IMG/VR virus record: IMGVR_UViG_3300009031_000221
Coordinates: 96,001 to 160,000 of that record
Origin: a virus
Lineage: Duplodnaviria > Caudoviricetes
Direction: 5' to 3' (one strand)
DNA length: 64,000 nucleotides
The notes under the pieces are model-generated. The model was not told the origin of the DNA. It made no database searches and was given only the letters and a program-made list of their open reading frames with translations. Made by a program: the position numbers and the translations under genes. This document shows positions 17,798 through 46,299 of the stretch, in pieces. Numbering within the stretch: position 1 is the stretch's first letter; each line of letters opens with the position of its first letter.

Positions 17798-17831
17798 CAA
17801 CACCCCCGGTTGGGCCCAACCGGGGGTGTTG
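17798..17831. terminator. Perfect 34-bp palindrome; intrinsic terminator
   Basis: caacacccccggttgggcccaaccgggggtgttg, followed by tgcttttg on the minus strand. Confidence 0.7.
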
Positions 17832-33427: not shown

Positions 33428-34648
33428 CTACTTCTTCTTCCGGATGCCGCGACCGGGCTTCTTTGCCGGGGGGGACTCAAGATGATTGTCTACCGCCTTC
33501 ATATGGCGCTTCAACTTCGCGACAACGGTATCCAGGTCATCCAGGTCAGTATCGTCCGGATGACGCCATATTGCCGAAAGATCATCGTCCAGTTTCTCTC
33601 CCTTCGCATTCGCCTTTCCGAACAACTCTTCCAACAGGGCATCCCCCGTCTTCACGTTATTACCCCAACCTTCAATGGCAGGGTTGTCAACACGGCTGAC
33701 AACGGTCTCCTCCTGAAACACATTCCCTGCCTCCGGAATGACGGACATACGAGGGTATTTGCTATTAGCAGGAGTGGTATTCGGGATCAAGCACAAGCCA
33801 TGCTTGGACTTGTCCGCAATACCGGAAGCCGGGGTCACATATGCCCATACATACTTACCGGAACGAACCAATTCCTGTGCCCCCGCCTTATCCGTTGCCG
33901 GTGCGTAATTCATGGGCCAATTGAAATCCTTGCCTTGCGCCGTGGAAAACTCGGAAGGCTGAGAAAGGTATGCGTCCCCCCTTGACATTCCATTCGGCAT
34001 ACTAGAACCGCCATTGAAAATCTTGGACACATCAGGTGCCGATTCCCACATGCCCGCAAGGGTTTCGAGTTCCAACGTACGATACTTCGCGGGCATGCTA
34101 CGCCGGTCTTTTCCGTCACTGTTGAGATCCCCAAAGGATTCCCACTTATCGTGACGCAGGGATTGCATTACAGCAAAGAACATTGCCCGTTGCGAAAGAT
34201 CCCCGTAAACCAGGATATCGTATCCAGCATCCCACAAATGCAGGTTCACTACATTCCCGTCATTCAACATGTACATGGACAGAACGGATCCCAACTCCTT
34301 GGTCTGATCCGTAATCGATTTGTCCATATCCAATGCGGCACGTAACCGATTCTTAAATGCTTCGACTTCAATTTCAATTTCAATTGGGGTGCAAACCGCT
34401 ACTTCGGATTGGGGTTCATCAACCTCAGGCGGAGAATCTTCCACAACCGGTGCTTGAACCGGGACGATTGCCGCAATCGTTTGCTTGATGACTAGTGCGT
34501 CCTCATGGAACGTATCTCTTGAGAATTGTCCGTTATTCCACCAGGCTACTTCAACTTGGTGACGACTTTGAATCAGGTCTGTTACAGTCACAACAGGAAT
34601 GGGGGTACCCGCAAGGTATACCAAATCACCAATCTTGAACTTGCTCAT
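33428..34648 (-). CDS. Mosaic protein: YodC/DUF2158-like N-terminus plus an internal copy of the scaffold C-terminal motif
   Basis: FKIGDLVYL...VTV...EVAWW N-terminus; internal WESAPDVSKIFNG. Confidence 0.7.
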   Translation of the reverse strand: MSKFKIGDLVYLAGTPIPVVTVTDLIQSRHQVEVAWWNNGQFSRDTFHEDALVIKQTIAAIVPVQAPVVEDSPPEVDEPQSEVAVCTPIEIEIEVEAFKNRLRAALDMDKSITDQTKELGSVLSMYMLNDGNVVNLHLWDAGYDILVYGDLSQRAMFFAVMQSLRHDKWESFGDLNSDGKDRRSMPAKYRTLELETLAGMWESAPDVSKIFNGGSSMPNGMSRGDAYLSQPSEFSTAQGKDFNWPMNYAPATDKAGAQELVRSGKYVWAYVTPASGIADKSKHGLCLIPNTTPANSKYPRMSVIPEAGNVFQEETVVSRVDNPAIEGWGNNVKTGDALLEELFGKANAKGEKLDDDLSAIWRHPDDTDLDDLDTVVAKLKRHMKAVDNHLESPPAKKPGRGIRKKK

Positions 34649-37134: not shown

Positions 37135-37311
37135 AAGATCCTCGTAGACGACTGGCCTCCGTATGTTACACGATGGTTGGAATGGCGTCCCCGTGGATTG
37201 GTCATCATGCCTGACCGCCCGTGGAATCAGGGATTCAATCACCCCAACGTATTCCGCTACACAGGCACGGAAGAAAATCACGCCGATATGCTGCTAAGGT
37301 TGCCGAATTAA
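37135..37311 (+). pseudogene. Displaced 3' fragment of the nucleotidase gene
   Basis: No start codon. Translates to KILVDDWPPYVTRWLEWRPRGLVIMPDRPWNQGFNHPNVFRY..., a paralog of the C-terminus of 35787-36368. Confidence 0.8.
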
Positions 37312-41186: not shown

Positions 41187-42062
41187 TTAGCGAGTGATCG
41201 TCAGACGTGCCAAACCACGAGGGTTGAACGCGCCAATACCCAAATTTTCGAATACTGAGAAGCCAATGGTACGTGCCTTGGGATCGTCAGCCGAAAGAAC
41301 CGTCAACTCAGTACGTACCGGAATACGTCCAAAGTGCTCAGGCTCGCAGCAAACGTACACCGTGCCAACAGGAACCAAACGGCTCGTGATGACAGATGCG
41401 CCCCACAGGGTGGCCATCAAGCCCGTCTTCAGCAAGGTTGCCTGAGACTCGATATCCAAGATATCGCGTCCAAACTTCCTCAAGTCCGCATAATCGCGGG
41501 CGTTCATGTAAATACGTGCTACACGCAAGTCATGACGCTCGATCAATGCGAATGCATCAGCGAGAACCGCACCCGAGATGGGGGCGACTACCGGGATGTC
41601 CGGGTTCAACTGCGCCGAGAGGGAGTCGAAGCCCGCCGTGGCGATAGAGTCCAGGATTGCGAACACACGCTCGTCTTCAGCTGCCTGAATCTGAGCACGG
41701 GCCAAGTCCTGGGCACGTTCGATCAAGTCGAACCTACGTTCCTTGATTTGCGTCAAAGGAATTTCGGGATTCGATGCGATCTCGAACAACGGAAAAATGA
41801 CACGCCTTGGCTTCGTGATAGCCAAGATGTTCTGACCTTCTTCACCGACCACGTACGCCGTAACGTCCGGGTCTTTATCGTAAATCGGGAGAGCGCCGTC
41901 AGGAAGCTGCTCTACCAAAAAGGTTTTCCGCCCAACAGCGGCATAATCGCGACGGGTACGCAGGGGCTGCGTCATGCTGGCTGCCAGCTTGACACGACCT
42001 GCAGGCGTCTTGATGTATTCGCCGATGATCTTCTGCTTGATTGCGTTGTTTACAGTACTCAT
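41187..42062 (-). CDS. Major capsid protein (HK97-fold)
   Basis: Last gene of the protease-scaffold-decoration-MCP block, with a strong terminator; IPLFEI...AQIQAAEDERVF...RIYMNARDYADLRK...LWGASVITS pattern. Confidence 0.88.
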   Translation of the reverse strand: MSTVNNAIKQKIIGEYIKTPAGRVKLAASMTQPLRTRRDYAAVGRKTFLVEQLPDGALPIYDKDPDVTAYVVGEEGQNILAITKPRRVIFPLFEIASNPEIPLTQIKERRFDLIERAQDLARAQIQAAEDERVFAILDSIATAGFDSLSAQLNPDIPVVAPISGAVLADAFALIERHDLRVARIYMNARDYADLRKFGRDILDIESQATLLKTGLMATLWGASVITSRLVPVGTVYVCCEPEHFGRIPVRTELTVLSADDPKARTIGFSVFENLGIGAFNPRGLARLTITR

Positions 42063-42073
42063 GATGCTCCTCC

Positions 42074-42778
42074 TTAGATCCGCTGGTCGTAGACCAACTC
42101 GGTCTGGACTGCGTCAGGCGACATCTTGAGGACGCCGATGAGGGTTGAAGTTCCGGCGCCACCACCGCCAACGCCATTGCTGACGTAAGCTTCAGCCGAA
42201 ACCGAAATGACATCCTGTGTCACCATATCGGCATCAGCAGTGTTGTGGACCCACATGGGCGTCAAGTAGCCGTTCAGGGATGCGATGAGCCGGGCTCCCG
42301 CATAGTACCGAATGGCAGTTCCCTGTACCGGGTTACCGACCGTGCCGATGATCTGCGTCTCATACAATGCGTTCCCGTAGGTACCCATGGCAGAAACGTA
42401 GGGGCCAACGCCTGAAGCAACACCGGGGGTGTTCTCGAATGCGTTACCAACAGCGCTATTGATGAAACATCCAAGGGCCTTGAAACCAGCCTTCTCTTCA
42501 AATGACATCAGGGCGAGTTCGGTAGCGGTCACGGGACCACCAACGTAGTTCTCGCCATCACGAGCGCGGGAAAATGCAACAGACCCGGACAGAACGCCCG
42601 ACTTGGTCTGATTGACGCGAGTTGAAATTGTACCTACCGTCGTAATGACCGGCGGGTTGCTCTGGGTAAACGAATCGTCCGTGAGCACGCCGATGCTGTT
42701 GCGGATACCCACATTCAGCAAACGCAATGCGCTTGAGCTCTCCGTCCAACCGCCCGATGCCTGTCCAAGCAGTGGCAT
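42074..42778 (-). CDS. Capsid decoration/cement protein
   Basis: Immediately upstream of MCP; Y..G.RL..S.NG.LT beta-tulip-like motif. Confidence 0.65.
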   Translation of the reverse strand: MPLLGQASGGWTESSSALRLLNVGIRNSIGVLTDDSFTQSNPPVITTVGTISTRVNQTKSGVLSGSVAFSRARDGENYVGGPVTATELALMSFEEKAGFKALGCFINSAVGNAFENTPGVASGVGPYVSAMGTYGNALYETQIIGTVGNPVQGTAIRYYAGARLIASLNGYLTPMWVHNTADADMVTQDVISVSAEAYVSNGVGGGGAGTSTLIGVLKMSPDAVQTELVYDQRI

Positions 42779-43021: not shown

Positions 43022-44776
43022 TTAGCCGTTGAAAACCTTGGAGACATCAGGTGCCGATTCCCACAAACGGGAGAGTTCGTCAACTTCACCGCCAGCCGAA
43101 GCCGTACGGGTCAATCCACCCACAGTGCGAACGCCGGTCGAAGCCTTGCGGGGCTGCGGACGCTGCGATGCAAGGCGCATGGCCTTCTTTGCAGCAGGGG
43201 AAGCATCCTCGTCTTCGCCTTCATCCTCATCCTCAGACTTCTTGGCCTTCTTGGATGCAACAGGAGCTTCCTCCTCTTCATCCTCATCCTCAGCCTCATC
43301 TTCCTCGGCGCCATCATCCTCATCCTCGTCCTCAGACTTCTTGGCCTTCTTGGATGCAACAGGAGCTTCCTCCTCTTCATCCTCATCCTCAGCCTTAGCG
43401 GACTTGCCGCCGAAGATCGATGCCAACAGCGCTTCGTCATCGTCGCCGAGAACGTCATCGCTACCGTCCGCGAGGCCCATCGGGTCTCCCGTCATGCCGA
43501 ACATACCGGCATCATCACCGCAAGCCTTCTTGCCTGCAGTAGGAGCATCCTCCTCATCTTCTTCATCCTCGGCCTCTGCCTTCTTCGCCTTCTTTCCGCC
43601 CTTCTTAGCTGCAACGGGAGCTTCCTCCTCATCTTCTTCAGCCTCAGCCTTCTTGGACGCAACAGGAGCTTCCTCTTCAGGTTCCGCCTTCTTGGCCTTG
43701 AGTGCCTTGAGCTTGGCAGCCTTCATGAAGGTAGCTTCCATCTCGGAAAGCATTGCAGCCTCAGCGGGATCAAGTCCAGCTACGGTTGTAACAGCCGCTA
43801 CGACAGGCTCAGGGGACAACGCATCAATAACTTCTTCCGAAGCCAGGATACCATCACGGTCAGTATCCAGGGCAGCGAACAGATCCTGCGATCCAACCCA
43901 CTCCGCCTGCATTACAAATCCGTCATTGTCCGTATCCATCGAAGCGAAGAACTTGCGTGCAGCCTTGCGAGCGGCAGCTTCCTTCTTTTCCTCGGGCTTG
44001 TCTTCGGGCTTGACTTCGGGTTCATCCTCGCCTTCGGCCTTCTTGGCTTCCTTGCGGGCTGCATCCTCATCCTTGGCCTTGGGGGCCAACGTCGGACCCT
44101 TGGGGTCATTCTGGTCAGCCTTCTTGAGGCTTTGTACCTTCTCGGTCAAAGCCGAAAGGGCACCCAGAACCTCGTCCATTTCAGACTTCTTTCCAGCATC
44201 AGGGGCTTCCTCAGCCAACATCATGTCCAGATCGTCATCATCCATATCGCCAAAGTCATTGGCAGGACCACCGAAATCATCAAAGTCGGGTTCGCCAAAA
44301 TCAGCCTGAGGAGCCATTTCCTCAGCCAAGAATCCTCCACCGATACGCTCCAATGTTGCATTGATGCGGGAATCCGACCAATCCATCATATCGAGCGCTT
44401 GATTTTCAACTGTATCGGATGAAGCCTTCTTGCCAAGCATGGCGCGAGCAATGCGAATGCACTTCTGTGCCTTGCGCTCCACGGCTGCACGCAAACTACG
44501 TGCTTCCTTGGGGACGCGGGGCTGCTCCTTGTGGGCAGGGTGATCCTGATCTTCCGTATCGTAGCCAGGAATGGCCGGGGGGTTACCCTGGGCATACGGG
44601 GGCTTCCGAACGTCCTCAGCCCATGCTGAAGGATCGCCTTTCTTGTAGGCCTCATAGGCAGGATCTGCCTGATGGGCGGGGTGGTCTTGATCCTCAGTAC
44701 CGTAACCGGGGATCTGGGGGGCGGCAGACGCCGAACGTCCTGCCGCCCACGTCATGCGATTCCTATTGGTGCTCAT
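43022..44776 (-). CDS. Capsid scaffolding protein (acidic, low-complexity, EF-hand pair)
   Basis: Between protease and decoration/MCP; very rich in E/D/K/A; TGATG coupling to the protease stop. Confidence 0.75.
   Translation of the reverse strand: MSTNRNRMTWAAGRSASAAPQIPGYGTEDQDHPAHQADPAYEAYKKGDPSAWAEDVRKPPYAQGNPPAIPGYDTEDQDHPAHKEQPRVPKEARSLRAAVERKAQKCIRIARAMLGKKASSDTVENQALDMMDWSDSRINATLERIGGGFLAEEMAPQADFGEPDFDDFGGPANDFGDMDDDDLDMMLAEEAPDAGKKSEMDEVLGALSALTEKVQSLKKADQNDPKGPTLAPKAKDEDAARKEAKKAEGEDEPEVKPEDKPEEKKEAAARKAARKFFASMDTDNDGFVMQAEWVGSQDLFAALDTDRDGILASEEVIDALSPEPVVAAVTTVAGLDPAEAAMLSEMEATFMKAAKLKALKAKKAEPEEEAPVASKKAEAEEDEEEAPVAAKKGGKKAKKAEAEDEEDEEDAPTAGKKACGDDAGMFGMTGDPMGLADGSDDVLGDDDEALLASIFGGKSAKAEDEDEEEEAPVASKKAKKSEDEDEDDGAEEDEAEDEDEEEEAPVASKKAKKSEDEDEGEDEDASPAAKKAMRLASQRPQPRKASTGVRTVGGLTRTASAGGEVDELSRLWESAPDVSKVFNG
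43231..43394. repeat. Perfect 65-bp direct repeat (43231-43295, 43330-43394) in the scaffold gene
   Basis: Encodes a duplicated AEDEDEEEEAPVASKKAKKSE unit. Confidence 0.85.
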
Positions 44777-46299
44777 CACTTTTCTCCTCGCTGTGGCGAC
44801 TGCCTGGTATTTCCAGCCTTTCCCGAAGTACATCCCCGTGAAAGAAGTTTGCCAAGACGAATTAACGTCTTAGCCTCATCCATGTTGGGTTCGCGTCCCA
44901 TTGCCAGGCGGCAGGCATGAATGAAGGAATTAGCAGAACCATACCTATTGGAACCACCGACCTGCAGTGCAGTGCGATAAATTCCAACGGGGACAGTAAT
45001 GCCGATTTGCTGATTGAACACCGCCACGCGGTTGATCAGGTCAGCGTCAGATGATGCAGTACGGACAATATCGTCCAATCCTGCCTGATATGCTTTGCGT
45101 GCCATTGAGGCTTGCTTATTGAGCGTCTCGTTGGTGCTGCTATTTCCAGGGGCTGGCGGGGCCAAATCCTTCTGGAGACGATCCTGCACTCGAGTAATAA
45201 GATGGTTGTAAACCGCGTCCTCTACATCCTTGAATGGAGTGGGCGGCGCTACAGGTGCTGCCGGGGCTACTGGAGCCGGGGCCTCAGGGGCTCCGTCCTC
45301 ATCTTCCCATCCAGCAAAGAAATCATCGGATGCATCCACATTGATTCTGCCCGTACGTGCCGGGGGTCCAACACGGGATACTATCACCGCATCAACAGGG
45401 GTAGATGCCGCCTTGAGGCGATCATCCTTCGTCCACTGAGGAGGAGGAGTTGACAAAACCTTCTTAGCCTTCTTCGCAGTCTCAGGGCTAAACTCTAGAA
45501 CGTTCCGAAGCACTGCCCCAGTAAATGCAGGCGTGCCAACCCAGGATGCTTCAATAAACTGTACGCCGCCTGTTGGTCCTAATGACTCATGGCCACACAG
45601 TTCCGCAATACGATGCTTGTTGCCATTCTCGTCAAAGAACGTGTTACCCTTGGCATATTTGATGTGAGGGCACATCTCCGTTTCATCAGCAGCCCAATGT
45701 CCACACTTGGTGCAAATAGTCCCGTCAACAGTGCAGCCCATTGATAGGGTGCCCATTTTTCCGGACTCAATAGCCTTGACCAAATCTTCATGCTTGCGAT
45801 CCGTGGCAATCAGGATATCCACATAGATGGAATCCCCAATGTCACGTGCCACGGCATCAATGATTCTGCCCTTGGACAATTCTTCTACTTGGACGTGTTC
45901 AACGAAATTATGCCCGCCAACGAATGTTTGGTAGGAAGACATCAATACAGGGCGATTCCAACAATCCATGTTGTTATTGATGAATTGATCACTCGCAGGC
46001 TTAACACGGAAATCGCTAAACTTCCGATTAACCCGGAACCCATCCTCCATTACGGAGCCCGTTTTGATTCCCTGGGGTGAATAGGTATCTACCGACGCAA
46101 TAATTGTGGCATGCGTTAGGAGATAATTATTCGGATTGAATGTCTCACCGAAAAATTCAGATGCCCGATCTACAAGGGATCCGCTTAGATCCCCTTCAAC
46201 CTTGGCGTCTTTGCTTCCAGCTGTCCGGATGTTACTCCATTCAGTTTGGGAAACGTGTGGGCGAACTACCTGAGCACAGGCGTACTTCATGAATGCCAT
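44776..46299 (-). CDS. Prohead maturation protease
   Basis: NFVEHVQ...KGRIIDAV...LSMGC.V...CTKCGH...FIEASWVGTPAF, typical of large-phage prohead proteases; lies upstream of the scaffold. Confidence 0.82.
   Translation of the reverse strand: MAFMKYACAQVVRPHVSQTEWSNIRTAGSKDAKVEGDLSGSLVDRASEFFGETFNPNNYLLTHATIIASVDTYSPQGIKTGSVMEDGFRVNRKFSDFRVKPASDQFINNNMDCWNRPVLMSSYQTFVGGHNFVEHVQVEELSKGRIIDAVARDIGDSIYVDILIATDRKHEDLVKAIESGKMGTLSMGCTVDGTICTKCGHWAADETEMCPHIKYAKGNTFFDENGNKHRIAELCGHESLGPTGGVQFIEASWVGTPAFTGAVLRNVLEFSPETAKKAKKVLSTPPPQWTKDDRLKAASTPVDAVIVSRVGPPARTGRINVDASDDFFAGWEDEDGAPEAPAPVAPAAPVAPPTPFKDVEDAVYNHLITRVQDRLQKDLAPPAPGNSSTNETLNKQASMARKAYQAGLDDIVRTASSDADLINRVAVFNQQIGITVPVGIYRTALQVGGSNRYGSANSFIHACRLAMGREPNMDEAKTLIRLGKLLSRGCTSGKAGNTRQSPQRGEK

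What the first reader, a model, noticed from the sequence alone, without database searches (positions are those of the whole stretch)
34011..34050. Scaffold C-terminal motif copied into an unrelated gene
Seen: 34011-34050 matches 43026-43065 at 37 of 40 nt. It encodes WESAPDVSKIFNG inside the 406-aa protein, versus WESAPDVSKVFNG-stop at the scaffold's extreme C-terminus; two of the three changes are synonymous. Established: the extreme C-terminus of many scaffolds binds coat protein. Inference: a recent capture of the capsid-binding peptide, giving either a cargo-loading handle or a decoy that modulates head assembly or excludes rival phages.
Basis: partly seen in the sequence, partly recalled or inferred. 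Interest (0 to 1): 0.66.

Follow-up and report, generated by a model that had tools for sequence, protein, structure and literature searches.

The report
Scaffold tail copied into orphan proteins
A huge uncultured phage has copied the most conserved ~20 residues of its capsid-scaffolding protein into the middle of an unrelated gene, and related phages keep the same peptide inside two other unrelated proteins, which suggests (untested) that it is a reusable handle for attaching proteins to the assembling phage head.

Summary
The match is real: 37/40 nt, same strand, in frame, the only second copy in a 536-kb phage genome, and identical in three other assemblies. The donor is the C-terminal tail of a scaffold-like protein, the most conserved part of that protein in well over 100 relatives. 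Codon identity (9/11, p about 0.002) shows DNA copying within this lineage. The motif is longer than reported (34010-34072), and its upstream half resembles a sister phage's scaffold, so the history is not one simple self-capture. New here: two other unrelated orphan protein families in related huge phages carry the same motif internally and keep it under constraint. It is sporadic: one copy per genome, in 2 of 8 large genomes. Best reading: a scaffold-derived handle that docks the carrier on the inside of the prohead (0.45); decoy 0.2; neutral accident 0.2; other partner 0.15. Capsid binding, and the scaffold identity itself, are inferred, not shown. Closest precedents: SaPI CpmB, T4 CTS, engineered P22 scaffold fusions. 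The scan noted scaffold-derived tags before in T4-like phages, but not this motif on other DNA.

The parts
34011..34050 (-). 40-nt near-exact copy of the scaffold 3' end (end of Met200 to Gly213 of the 406-aa protein)
   Evidence: 37/40 nt, in frame; 9/11 degenerate codons identical
34010..34072 (-). Full internal motif, Glu193-Gly213: E-x3-L-x2-M-W-x3-P-D-V-x3-F
   Evidence: All invariant scaffold-tail columns present; upstream 8 residues fit the tail profile at p about 0.005; 34010-34060 matches sister scaffold L001 at 80% nt
33428..34648 (-). 406-aa orphan carrier gene (P0001)
   Evidence: GAGG ribosome-binding site 6 nt before ATG; codon adaptation like head genes, 0.82 vs 0.84; called on 11 contigs; only 2 weak relatives among 1.84 billion representatives
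34472..34648 (-). N-terminal DUF2158/YodC-like small domain (residues 1-59)
   Evidence: phrog_3261 E 6e-7; Pfam DUF2158 E 0.04, below cut-off; Atlas structural hit TM 0.77 by target
33677..33937 (-). Region (residues 238-324) homologous to P0002, a 282-aa protein encoded directly after MCP in a sister phage; P0002 lacks the P-D-V half of the motif
   Evidence: phmmer E 2.8e-4 in the whole library, pairwise BLAST E 4e-14
43025..43087 (-). Donor: conserved C-terminal tail of the scaffold-like protein
   Evidence: L, W, P, D, V, F invariant in 31 aligned tails; terminal in 119 of the 120 best database hits
43022..44833 (-). Scaffold-like protein, 603 aa (584 from the second ATG), acidic and low-complexity, with an EF-hand pair
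   Evidence: Lies between protease-like gene and decoration/MCP genes, as in phage G and Tunturi_5; scaffold role inferred
41187..42062 (-). Major capsid protein, presumed partner
   Evidence: phrog_2522 E 1e-48; 39% identical to phage G gp27; profile hits PDB 6wkk E 2e-69
42074..42778 (-). 234-aa gene in the position of phage G decoration protein gp26
   Evidence: Position only; no family hit
44776..46299 (-). Head maturation protease-like gene
   Evidence: phrog_18299 E 1e-13

Best explanation
The peptide is a portable copy of the scaffold's head-docking tail. Shown: it was copied at DNA level from a scaffold gene of this lineage, in frame, with every invariant residue, and the same motif sits inside two other unrelated proteins of the clade, where it is conserved. 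Inferred: (1) the acidic protein before decoration/MCP is the scaffold; (2) its tail forms an amphipathic helix plus hook that binds the inner face of MCP in the prohead, as the last 16 residues of the 80alpha scaffold do; (3) the 406-aa protein, encoded on the same strand downstream of the head genes, takes a few of those sites during assembly and is thereby built into the prohead; (4) when the shell expands and the site is lost, the protein is left in the head as low-copy cargo or a minor internal protein. What the cargo does is unknown.
For: Tail is the most conserved block of the donor. Complete motif in the carrier, upstream half included. Family B: P0128 in a 618-kb genome and P0066 are syntenic orthologues only about 30% identical in their best region, yet share 11 of 15 motif residues. 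Family C: two proteins 69% identical share 17 identical residues over the motif, with 9 silent codon differences; their contig matches three clade genomes at DNA level. On columns not fixed by the search pattern, P0001, P0066 and family C score +6 to +20, among true scaffolds (-1 to +30), while chance hits score -12.7 or less. Homologue P0002 is encoded directly after MCP. Precedent: SaPI CpmB binds capsid protein with a tail homologous to the helper scaffold's (PMC5644958); P22 scaffold-tail fusions are enough to load foreign proteins (PMC9962691).
Against: No experimental data on this scaffold, and no solved structure holds the motif. Selection on this particular copy is not significant. Only one carrier per genome, in 2 of 8 large records, unlike true tag systems. 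The motif is internal, whereas the donor's is terminal (although scaffold tails tolerate 0-9 extra residues). The carrier lacks the RVA-x-x-aromatic motif found on many head-region proteins of this phage. Families B and C lie far from the head genes. P0002 works, or at least persists, without the P-D-V half. Families B and C were found by searching for the motif, so their conservation is partly selected for.
Confidence: 0.45

Rival explanations
1. Decoy or modulator: the carrier binds MCP through the copied tail but is not packaged; it competes with scaffold to tune timing or size of head assembly, tethers proheads, or (least likely) blocks a co-infecting relative.
For: CpmB precedent of competition for the scaffold site (PMC5644958). 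Families B and C are in accessory regions away from the head operon. Family C has a long hydrophobic stretch near its C-terminus (peak hydropathy 1.58), which could anchor it. MCP is 83-96% identical across the clade, so one peptide could act on relatives.
Against: A near-exact copy of the own tail cannot tell self from rival. The 406-aa gene is in the structural region on the head-gene strand. No dimerising, size-determining domain like CpmB's was detected.
Confidence: 0.2
2. Neutral accident in this gene: short-homology recombination or gene conversion pasted a scaffold 3' end into a fast-evolving orphan, possibly seeded by a pre-existing L-x-x-x-W similarity; it is in frame because other outcomes were purged, and it does nothing.
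For: 1 replacement against 2 silent changes is compatible with neutrality on the carrier branch (p about 0.2). The carrier is a singleton. The motif sits near the junction between a non-homologous N-terminal part and the P0002-like part. The genome has other short scattered repeats. P0002 has no intact motif.
Against: The same ~60 nt out of a 1.8-kb gene in a 0.5-Mb genome appear in three unrelated families, bounded at the conserved motif. The motif is retained across deep divergence in family B and under silent change in family C. Chance expectation for the pattern in the phage DNA searched is about 3e-4.
Confidence: 0.2
3. The motif is a docking signal for another partner: portal, maturation protease, decoration protein, the scaffold itself, or a host chaperone or protease. 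The carriers use it to reach that partner.
For: The scaffold role and the partner are inferred only from gene order. The motif is acidic/aromatic, unlike the basic tails of P22 and 80alpha. Phage G gp21 and Tunturi_5 gp332 end in different sequences although their MCPs are homologous.
Against: Extreme conservation of the tail parallels the very high conservation of MCP in the clade; C-terminal coat binding is the rule in the characterised systems cited; divergent tails in phage G and Tunturi_5 go with divergent MCPs (39% and 50%).
Confidence: 0.15

Closest known systems
SaPI1 CpmB and phage 80alpha scaffold (PMC5644958)
   Same: A second protein carries a copy of the scaffold's C-terminal ~16 residues (helix and hook) and, in that system, binds capsid protein at the same site.
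   Different: CpmB is encoded by a parasite, is 72 aa, has the motif at its C-terminus and redirects capsid size. Here the carrier is the phage's own 406-aa gene, the motif is internal and unrelated in sequence to RIIK, and binding is untested.
Phage T4 capsid targeting sequence (CTS) of internal proteins (PMC3012670)
   Same: A short shared peptide on otherwise unrelated, fast-evolving proteins that directs them into the prohead.
   Different: CTS is N-terminal, on several proteins of one genome, targets the scaffolding core and (own knowledge) is cut off by the prohead protease. This motif is internal, on one carrier per genome, and is a DNA-level copy of the scaffold end.
Engineered P22 scaffold-tail fusions (PMC9962691)
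   Same: The coat-binding C-terminal part of a scaffold is enough to load foreign proteins into an HK97-fold shell; one listed construct places GFP at the scaffold C-terminus.
   Different: Artificial, uses 65-160 residues of scaffold, basic motif; here it would be a natural ~20-residue version.
Encapsulin cargo-loading peptides (own knowledge; relation of encapsulins to procapsids in PMC13669383)
   Same: A short peptide docks cargo on the inner face of an HK97-fold shell.
   Different: Terminal peptides, cellular compartments, no scaffold protein as donor; no sequence similarity tested.
Bacillus phage G head module (gp19 protease, gp21, gp26, gp27; PDB 6wkk)
   Same: Homologous MCP (39%) and the same gene order; nearest cultured model with a structure.
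   Different: gp21 ends in a different sequence, and no deposited cultured phage holds this tail.

Membership tests
CpmB-like scaffold mimic | Shares the scaffold's C-terminal motif | tested here: met
   all invariant residues present
CpmB-like scaffold mimic | Motif at the C-terminus of a small protein | tested here: not met
   Residues 193-213 of 406; also internal in families B and C
CpmB-like scaffold mimic | Encoded by a satellite or island, not by the helper phage | tested here: not met
   Gene lies in the phage's own structural region, 6.5 kb from MCP
CpmB-like scaffold mimic | Binds capsid protein and changes capsid size | not testable with these tools
   Needs assembly experiments
T4-type capsid targeting sequence | N-terminal ~10-residue leader | tested here: not met
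   Motif is internal
T4-type capsid targeting sequence | Shared by several unrelated proteins in one genome | tested here: not met
   One carrier per genome; three unrelated carriers only across genomes
T4-type capsid targeting sequence | Flanked by a prohead protease site | tested here: inconclusive
   No R/K-x-A type site of the kind seen before scaffold tails in P0001; the true cut site is unknown
T4-type capsid targeting sequence | Sufficient to encapsidate a reporter | not testable with these tools
   Needs experiment
Phage capsid scaffolding protein (donor gene) | Encoded between maturation protease and major capsid genes | tested here: met
   same order in phage G and Tunturi_5
Phage capsid scaffolding protein (donor gene) | Charged, low-complexity body with a conserved amphipathic C-terminal helix | tested here: met
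   25% Asp+Glu, hydrophobic moment 1.47 for the tail helix
Phage capsid scaffolding protein (donor gene) | Homology to a characterised scaffold | tested here: not met
   No Pfam, PHROG or PDB hit other than EF-hands
Phage capsid scaffolding protein (donor gene) | Present in proheads, absent from virions | not testable with these tools
   Phage is uncultured

The most novel reading that the evidence does not exclude
Huge phages of this clade repeatedly evolve new head-associated proteins by grafting the scaffold's ~20-residue capsid-docking tail into the middle of unrelated orphan genes. This window shows such a graft while the DNA trace is still visible. The tail would then be a minimal, position-independent loading peptide for a very large HK97-fold capsid.
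Probability: 0.4. Interest if true: 0.75.

Novelty: new variant of a known kind. Interest (0 to 1): 0.57.

Why it matters
How large phages choose and load internal head proteins, and how such loading signals arise, is largely open outside T4. If true, this gives a visible origin for a loading signal (copying of the scaffold tail), three independent natural examples, and a defined 20-residue peptide with six invariant residues that can be tested by co-expression with a 291-aa MCP in a laboratory strain. It also pins down the likely coat-binding motif of an uncharacterised scaffold family shared by hundreds of uncultured huge phages. If false, it is still a clean case of intragenomic micro-recombination building a chimeric orphan gene.

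Tried and rejected
Complex prediction of three MCP copies with residues 182-223 of the carrier (alignments A4, A5) gave no verdict (score 0.01); it is no evidence either way. Assembly chimera: rejected. Match due only to amino-acid conservation: rejected. A second scaffold block (D-P-M-G...L-F) seemingly echoed at carrier residues 312-344: not supported, 1.7 bits. A lineage-specific link between the G001 internal copy and its own scaffold (shared T-P-T-R): weak, only 19/33 nt in the core, and the copy is closer to another scaffold type, L101. P0002 as a decayed copy of the motif: inconclusive (p 0.04-0.08). Late-promoter test upstream of the gene: inconclusive. Further homologues of P0001, P0002, P0066 or family C in IMG/VR and the 5.8-billion-protein set: none. 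Strict-pattern scans of IMG/VR returned only scaffolds or nothing; these patterns pass only a minority of possible internal copies. Only 120 of 463 motif hits in the protein set could be seen. Literature searches found no report of this motif.

Full report
Setting. The window is positions 96001-160000 of a single 536,053-nt virus record. It holds a head module on the minus strand: terminase, portal, a protease-like gene (44776-46299), a 603-aa acidic protein (43022-44833), a 234-aa gene and the major capsid protein (41187-42062). MCP is 39% identical to phage G gp27, 88% to an uncultured 485-kb phage, and its profile hits PDB 6wkk. IMG/VR holds at least 583 related MCP stretches; aligned members are 83-96% identical. 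Groundwater is named as the source of one contig.

The observation. The two stretches match at 37/40 nt, in frame, with two silent changes and one Ile/Val change. There is no third copy in the genome. The 406-aa gene is on 11 contigs; three contigs from different runs are 100% identical to the window and one spans both copies. It has a ribosome-binding site and codon usage like the head genes. Reads could not be checked.

The donor. The last ~21 residues of the 603-aa protein are its most conserved part: L, W, P, D, V and F are invariant in 31 aligned tails, and the motif is terminal in about 70 of 80 MCP loci and in 119 of the 120 best database hits. The protein has no characterised homologue. 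Its position matches phage G gp21 and Tunturi_5 gp332, which end in different sequences. Calling it the scaffold is a well-founded inference, not a tested fact.

Copying and age. Nine of 11 degenerate codons are identical between the two copies, against 4.2 expected (p = 0.002); relatives' tails share 40%. The nearest sampled relatives share only 46-48% of such codons in MCP, so the copy is younger than the split from them. Several of the shared codons are common to the sister group, and only three are specific to the own scaffold, so the donor is placed in this lineage more firmly than in this exact genome. The motif also extends upstream of the nucleotide match: residues 193-200 fit the tail profile (p about 0.005), and the four codons before Trp match sister scaffold L001 at 10/12 nt but the own scaffold at 6/12; BLASTN aligns L001 over 34010-34060 at 80%. 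Either the donor was an unsampled sister phage, or an older tag was later partly converted by the resident scaffold. One replacement against two silent changes does not show selection on this copy (p about 0.2).

The carrier. It is an orphan: a DUF2158-like N-terminal domain, an unassigned middle part, the motif, then a region homologous to P0002, a 282-aa protein encoded right after MCP in a sister phage. P0002 has Glu, Leu, Trp and Ser at matching positions but no P-D-V; whether that is a decayed copy is unresolved.

Recurrence. Searching 30 clade records (about 5.2 Mb) found one more internal copy, in a 356-aa orphan about 177 kb from the scaffold of a 618-kb genome. A protein search found P0066 (462 aa) with an internal copy; it is the syntenic orthologue of the 356-aa protein, about 30% identical in the best region but identical at 11 of 15 motif residues. 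A metagenome pattern scan found a third family (492 and 466 aa, 69% identical) with 17 identical residues across the motif and 9 silent differences; other parts of that protein are as conserved, so this shows constraint but not exceptional constraint. Its contig matches three clade genomes at DNA level and shares a structural-region gene; no MCP is on the part seen. The three families align with each other only over the motif. As a control, the same pattern gave 34 hits in 596 Gb of prokaryote genomes, four of them scaffolds on phage contigs. On columns not fixed by the pattern, P0001, P0066 and family C score with true scaffolds and chance hits fall well below; the 356-aa copy is intermediate at -8.4. 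Internal copies are sporadic: 2 of 8 records of 290 kb or more, counting this genome, one copy each.

Mechanism. In 80alpha the last 16 scaffold residues form a helix and hook on the capsid protein, and SaPI CpmB uses a homologous tail at the same site (PMC5644958). In P22 the C-terminal coat-binding region loads fused proteins (PMC9962691). T4 loads diverse internal proteins by a conserved tag (PMC3012670). The motif here has the same layout, an amphipathic helix up to Trp followed by Pro and a short hydrophobic end (inference). I therefore think the carriers most likely dock on the prohead interior and ride along as low-copy internal proteins (0.45). A decoy or tether role (0.2) fits the two families that lie away from the head genes; exclusion of rivals is the weakest form, because the peptide cannot tell own from related MCP. 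A neutral graft in this particular gene (0.2) and a different partner (0.15) remain open. The carrier lacks the RVA-x-x-aromatic motif seen on many head-region proteins of this phage, so it is not part of that set.

Comparison and verdict. It works like a CpmB tail or a natural P22-style scaffold fusion, but fails the membership tests for both CpmB-like mimics and T4 CTS (position, copy number, origin). No paper found describes this motif. Other notes of this scan describe scaffold-derived tags on many proteins in T4-like phages; these are unchecked leads and concern other motifs. Verdict: real, a new variant of a known kind, function inferred; interest 0.57.

Noticed in passing
window:33554-33592 (-): A weak second half-site in the 406-aa protein (residues 353-365, acidic-L-S-x-I-W then P-D one residue early); upstream half fits the tail profile at p about 0.003 before correction for several Trp, full motif does not fit.
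   Followed up: partly
window:33998-34012 (-): GGCGGT lies 6 nt before Met217 of the 406-aa gene, right after the copied motif; it could be an internal start or the trace of an old gene fusion.
   Followed up: no
window:43832-43936 (-): EF-hand pair inside the scaffold-like protein (Pfam above cut-off); also in several relatives.
   Followed up: partly
whole genome; e.g. window 27955, 28657, 29809, 46575, 50091, 51282, 51600, 61370: An R/K-V-A-x-x-aromatic motif recurs in many structural-region proteins, often near their ends; the 406-aa protein lacks it, P0002 has three R/K-Q-A stretches.
   Followed up: partly
window:36174-36307 and 37141-37274: 69% repeat: nucleotidase (NT5C) 3' part occurs twice around an antisense GIY-YIG endonuclease gene.
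   Followed up: no
window:31773-33350 (-): Three tandem ~175-aa paralogues directly downstream of the 406-aa gene, conserved in sister phages.
   Followed up: no
window:34648-41097: The stretch between MCP and the paralogue trio is a variable-gene hotspot: different genes fill it in each sister phage, including an Acb2/Tad1-like gene in one.
   Followed up: partly
L118:872-2350 (+): Family C carrier has a long hydrophobic stretch near its C-terminus (around residues 436-470), perhaps a membrane anchor.
   Followed up: partly
L120, L134, L143, L150: Head modules of this phage clade sit inside four bacterial MAGs in the GTDB set, probably mis-binned phage contigs.
   Followed up: no
genome C1, e.g. 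388224-388297, 427817-427886, 442586-442656, 445239-445313: A family of scattered 60-75-nt repeats in both orientations in the second half of the genome.
   Followed up: no
window:358-395 and 17798-17831: Perfect palindromes of 38 and 34 nt.
   Followed up: no
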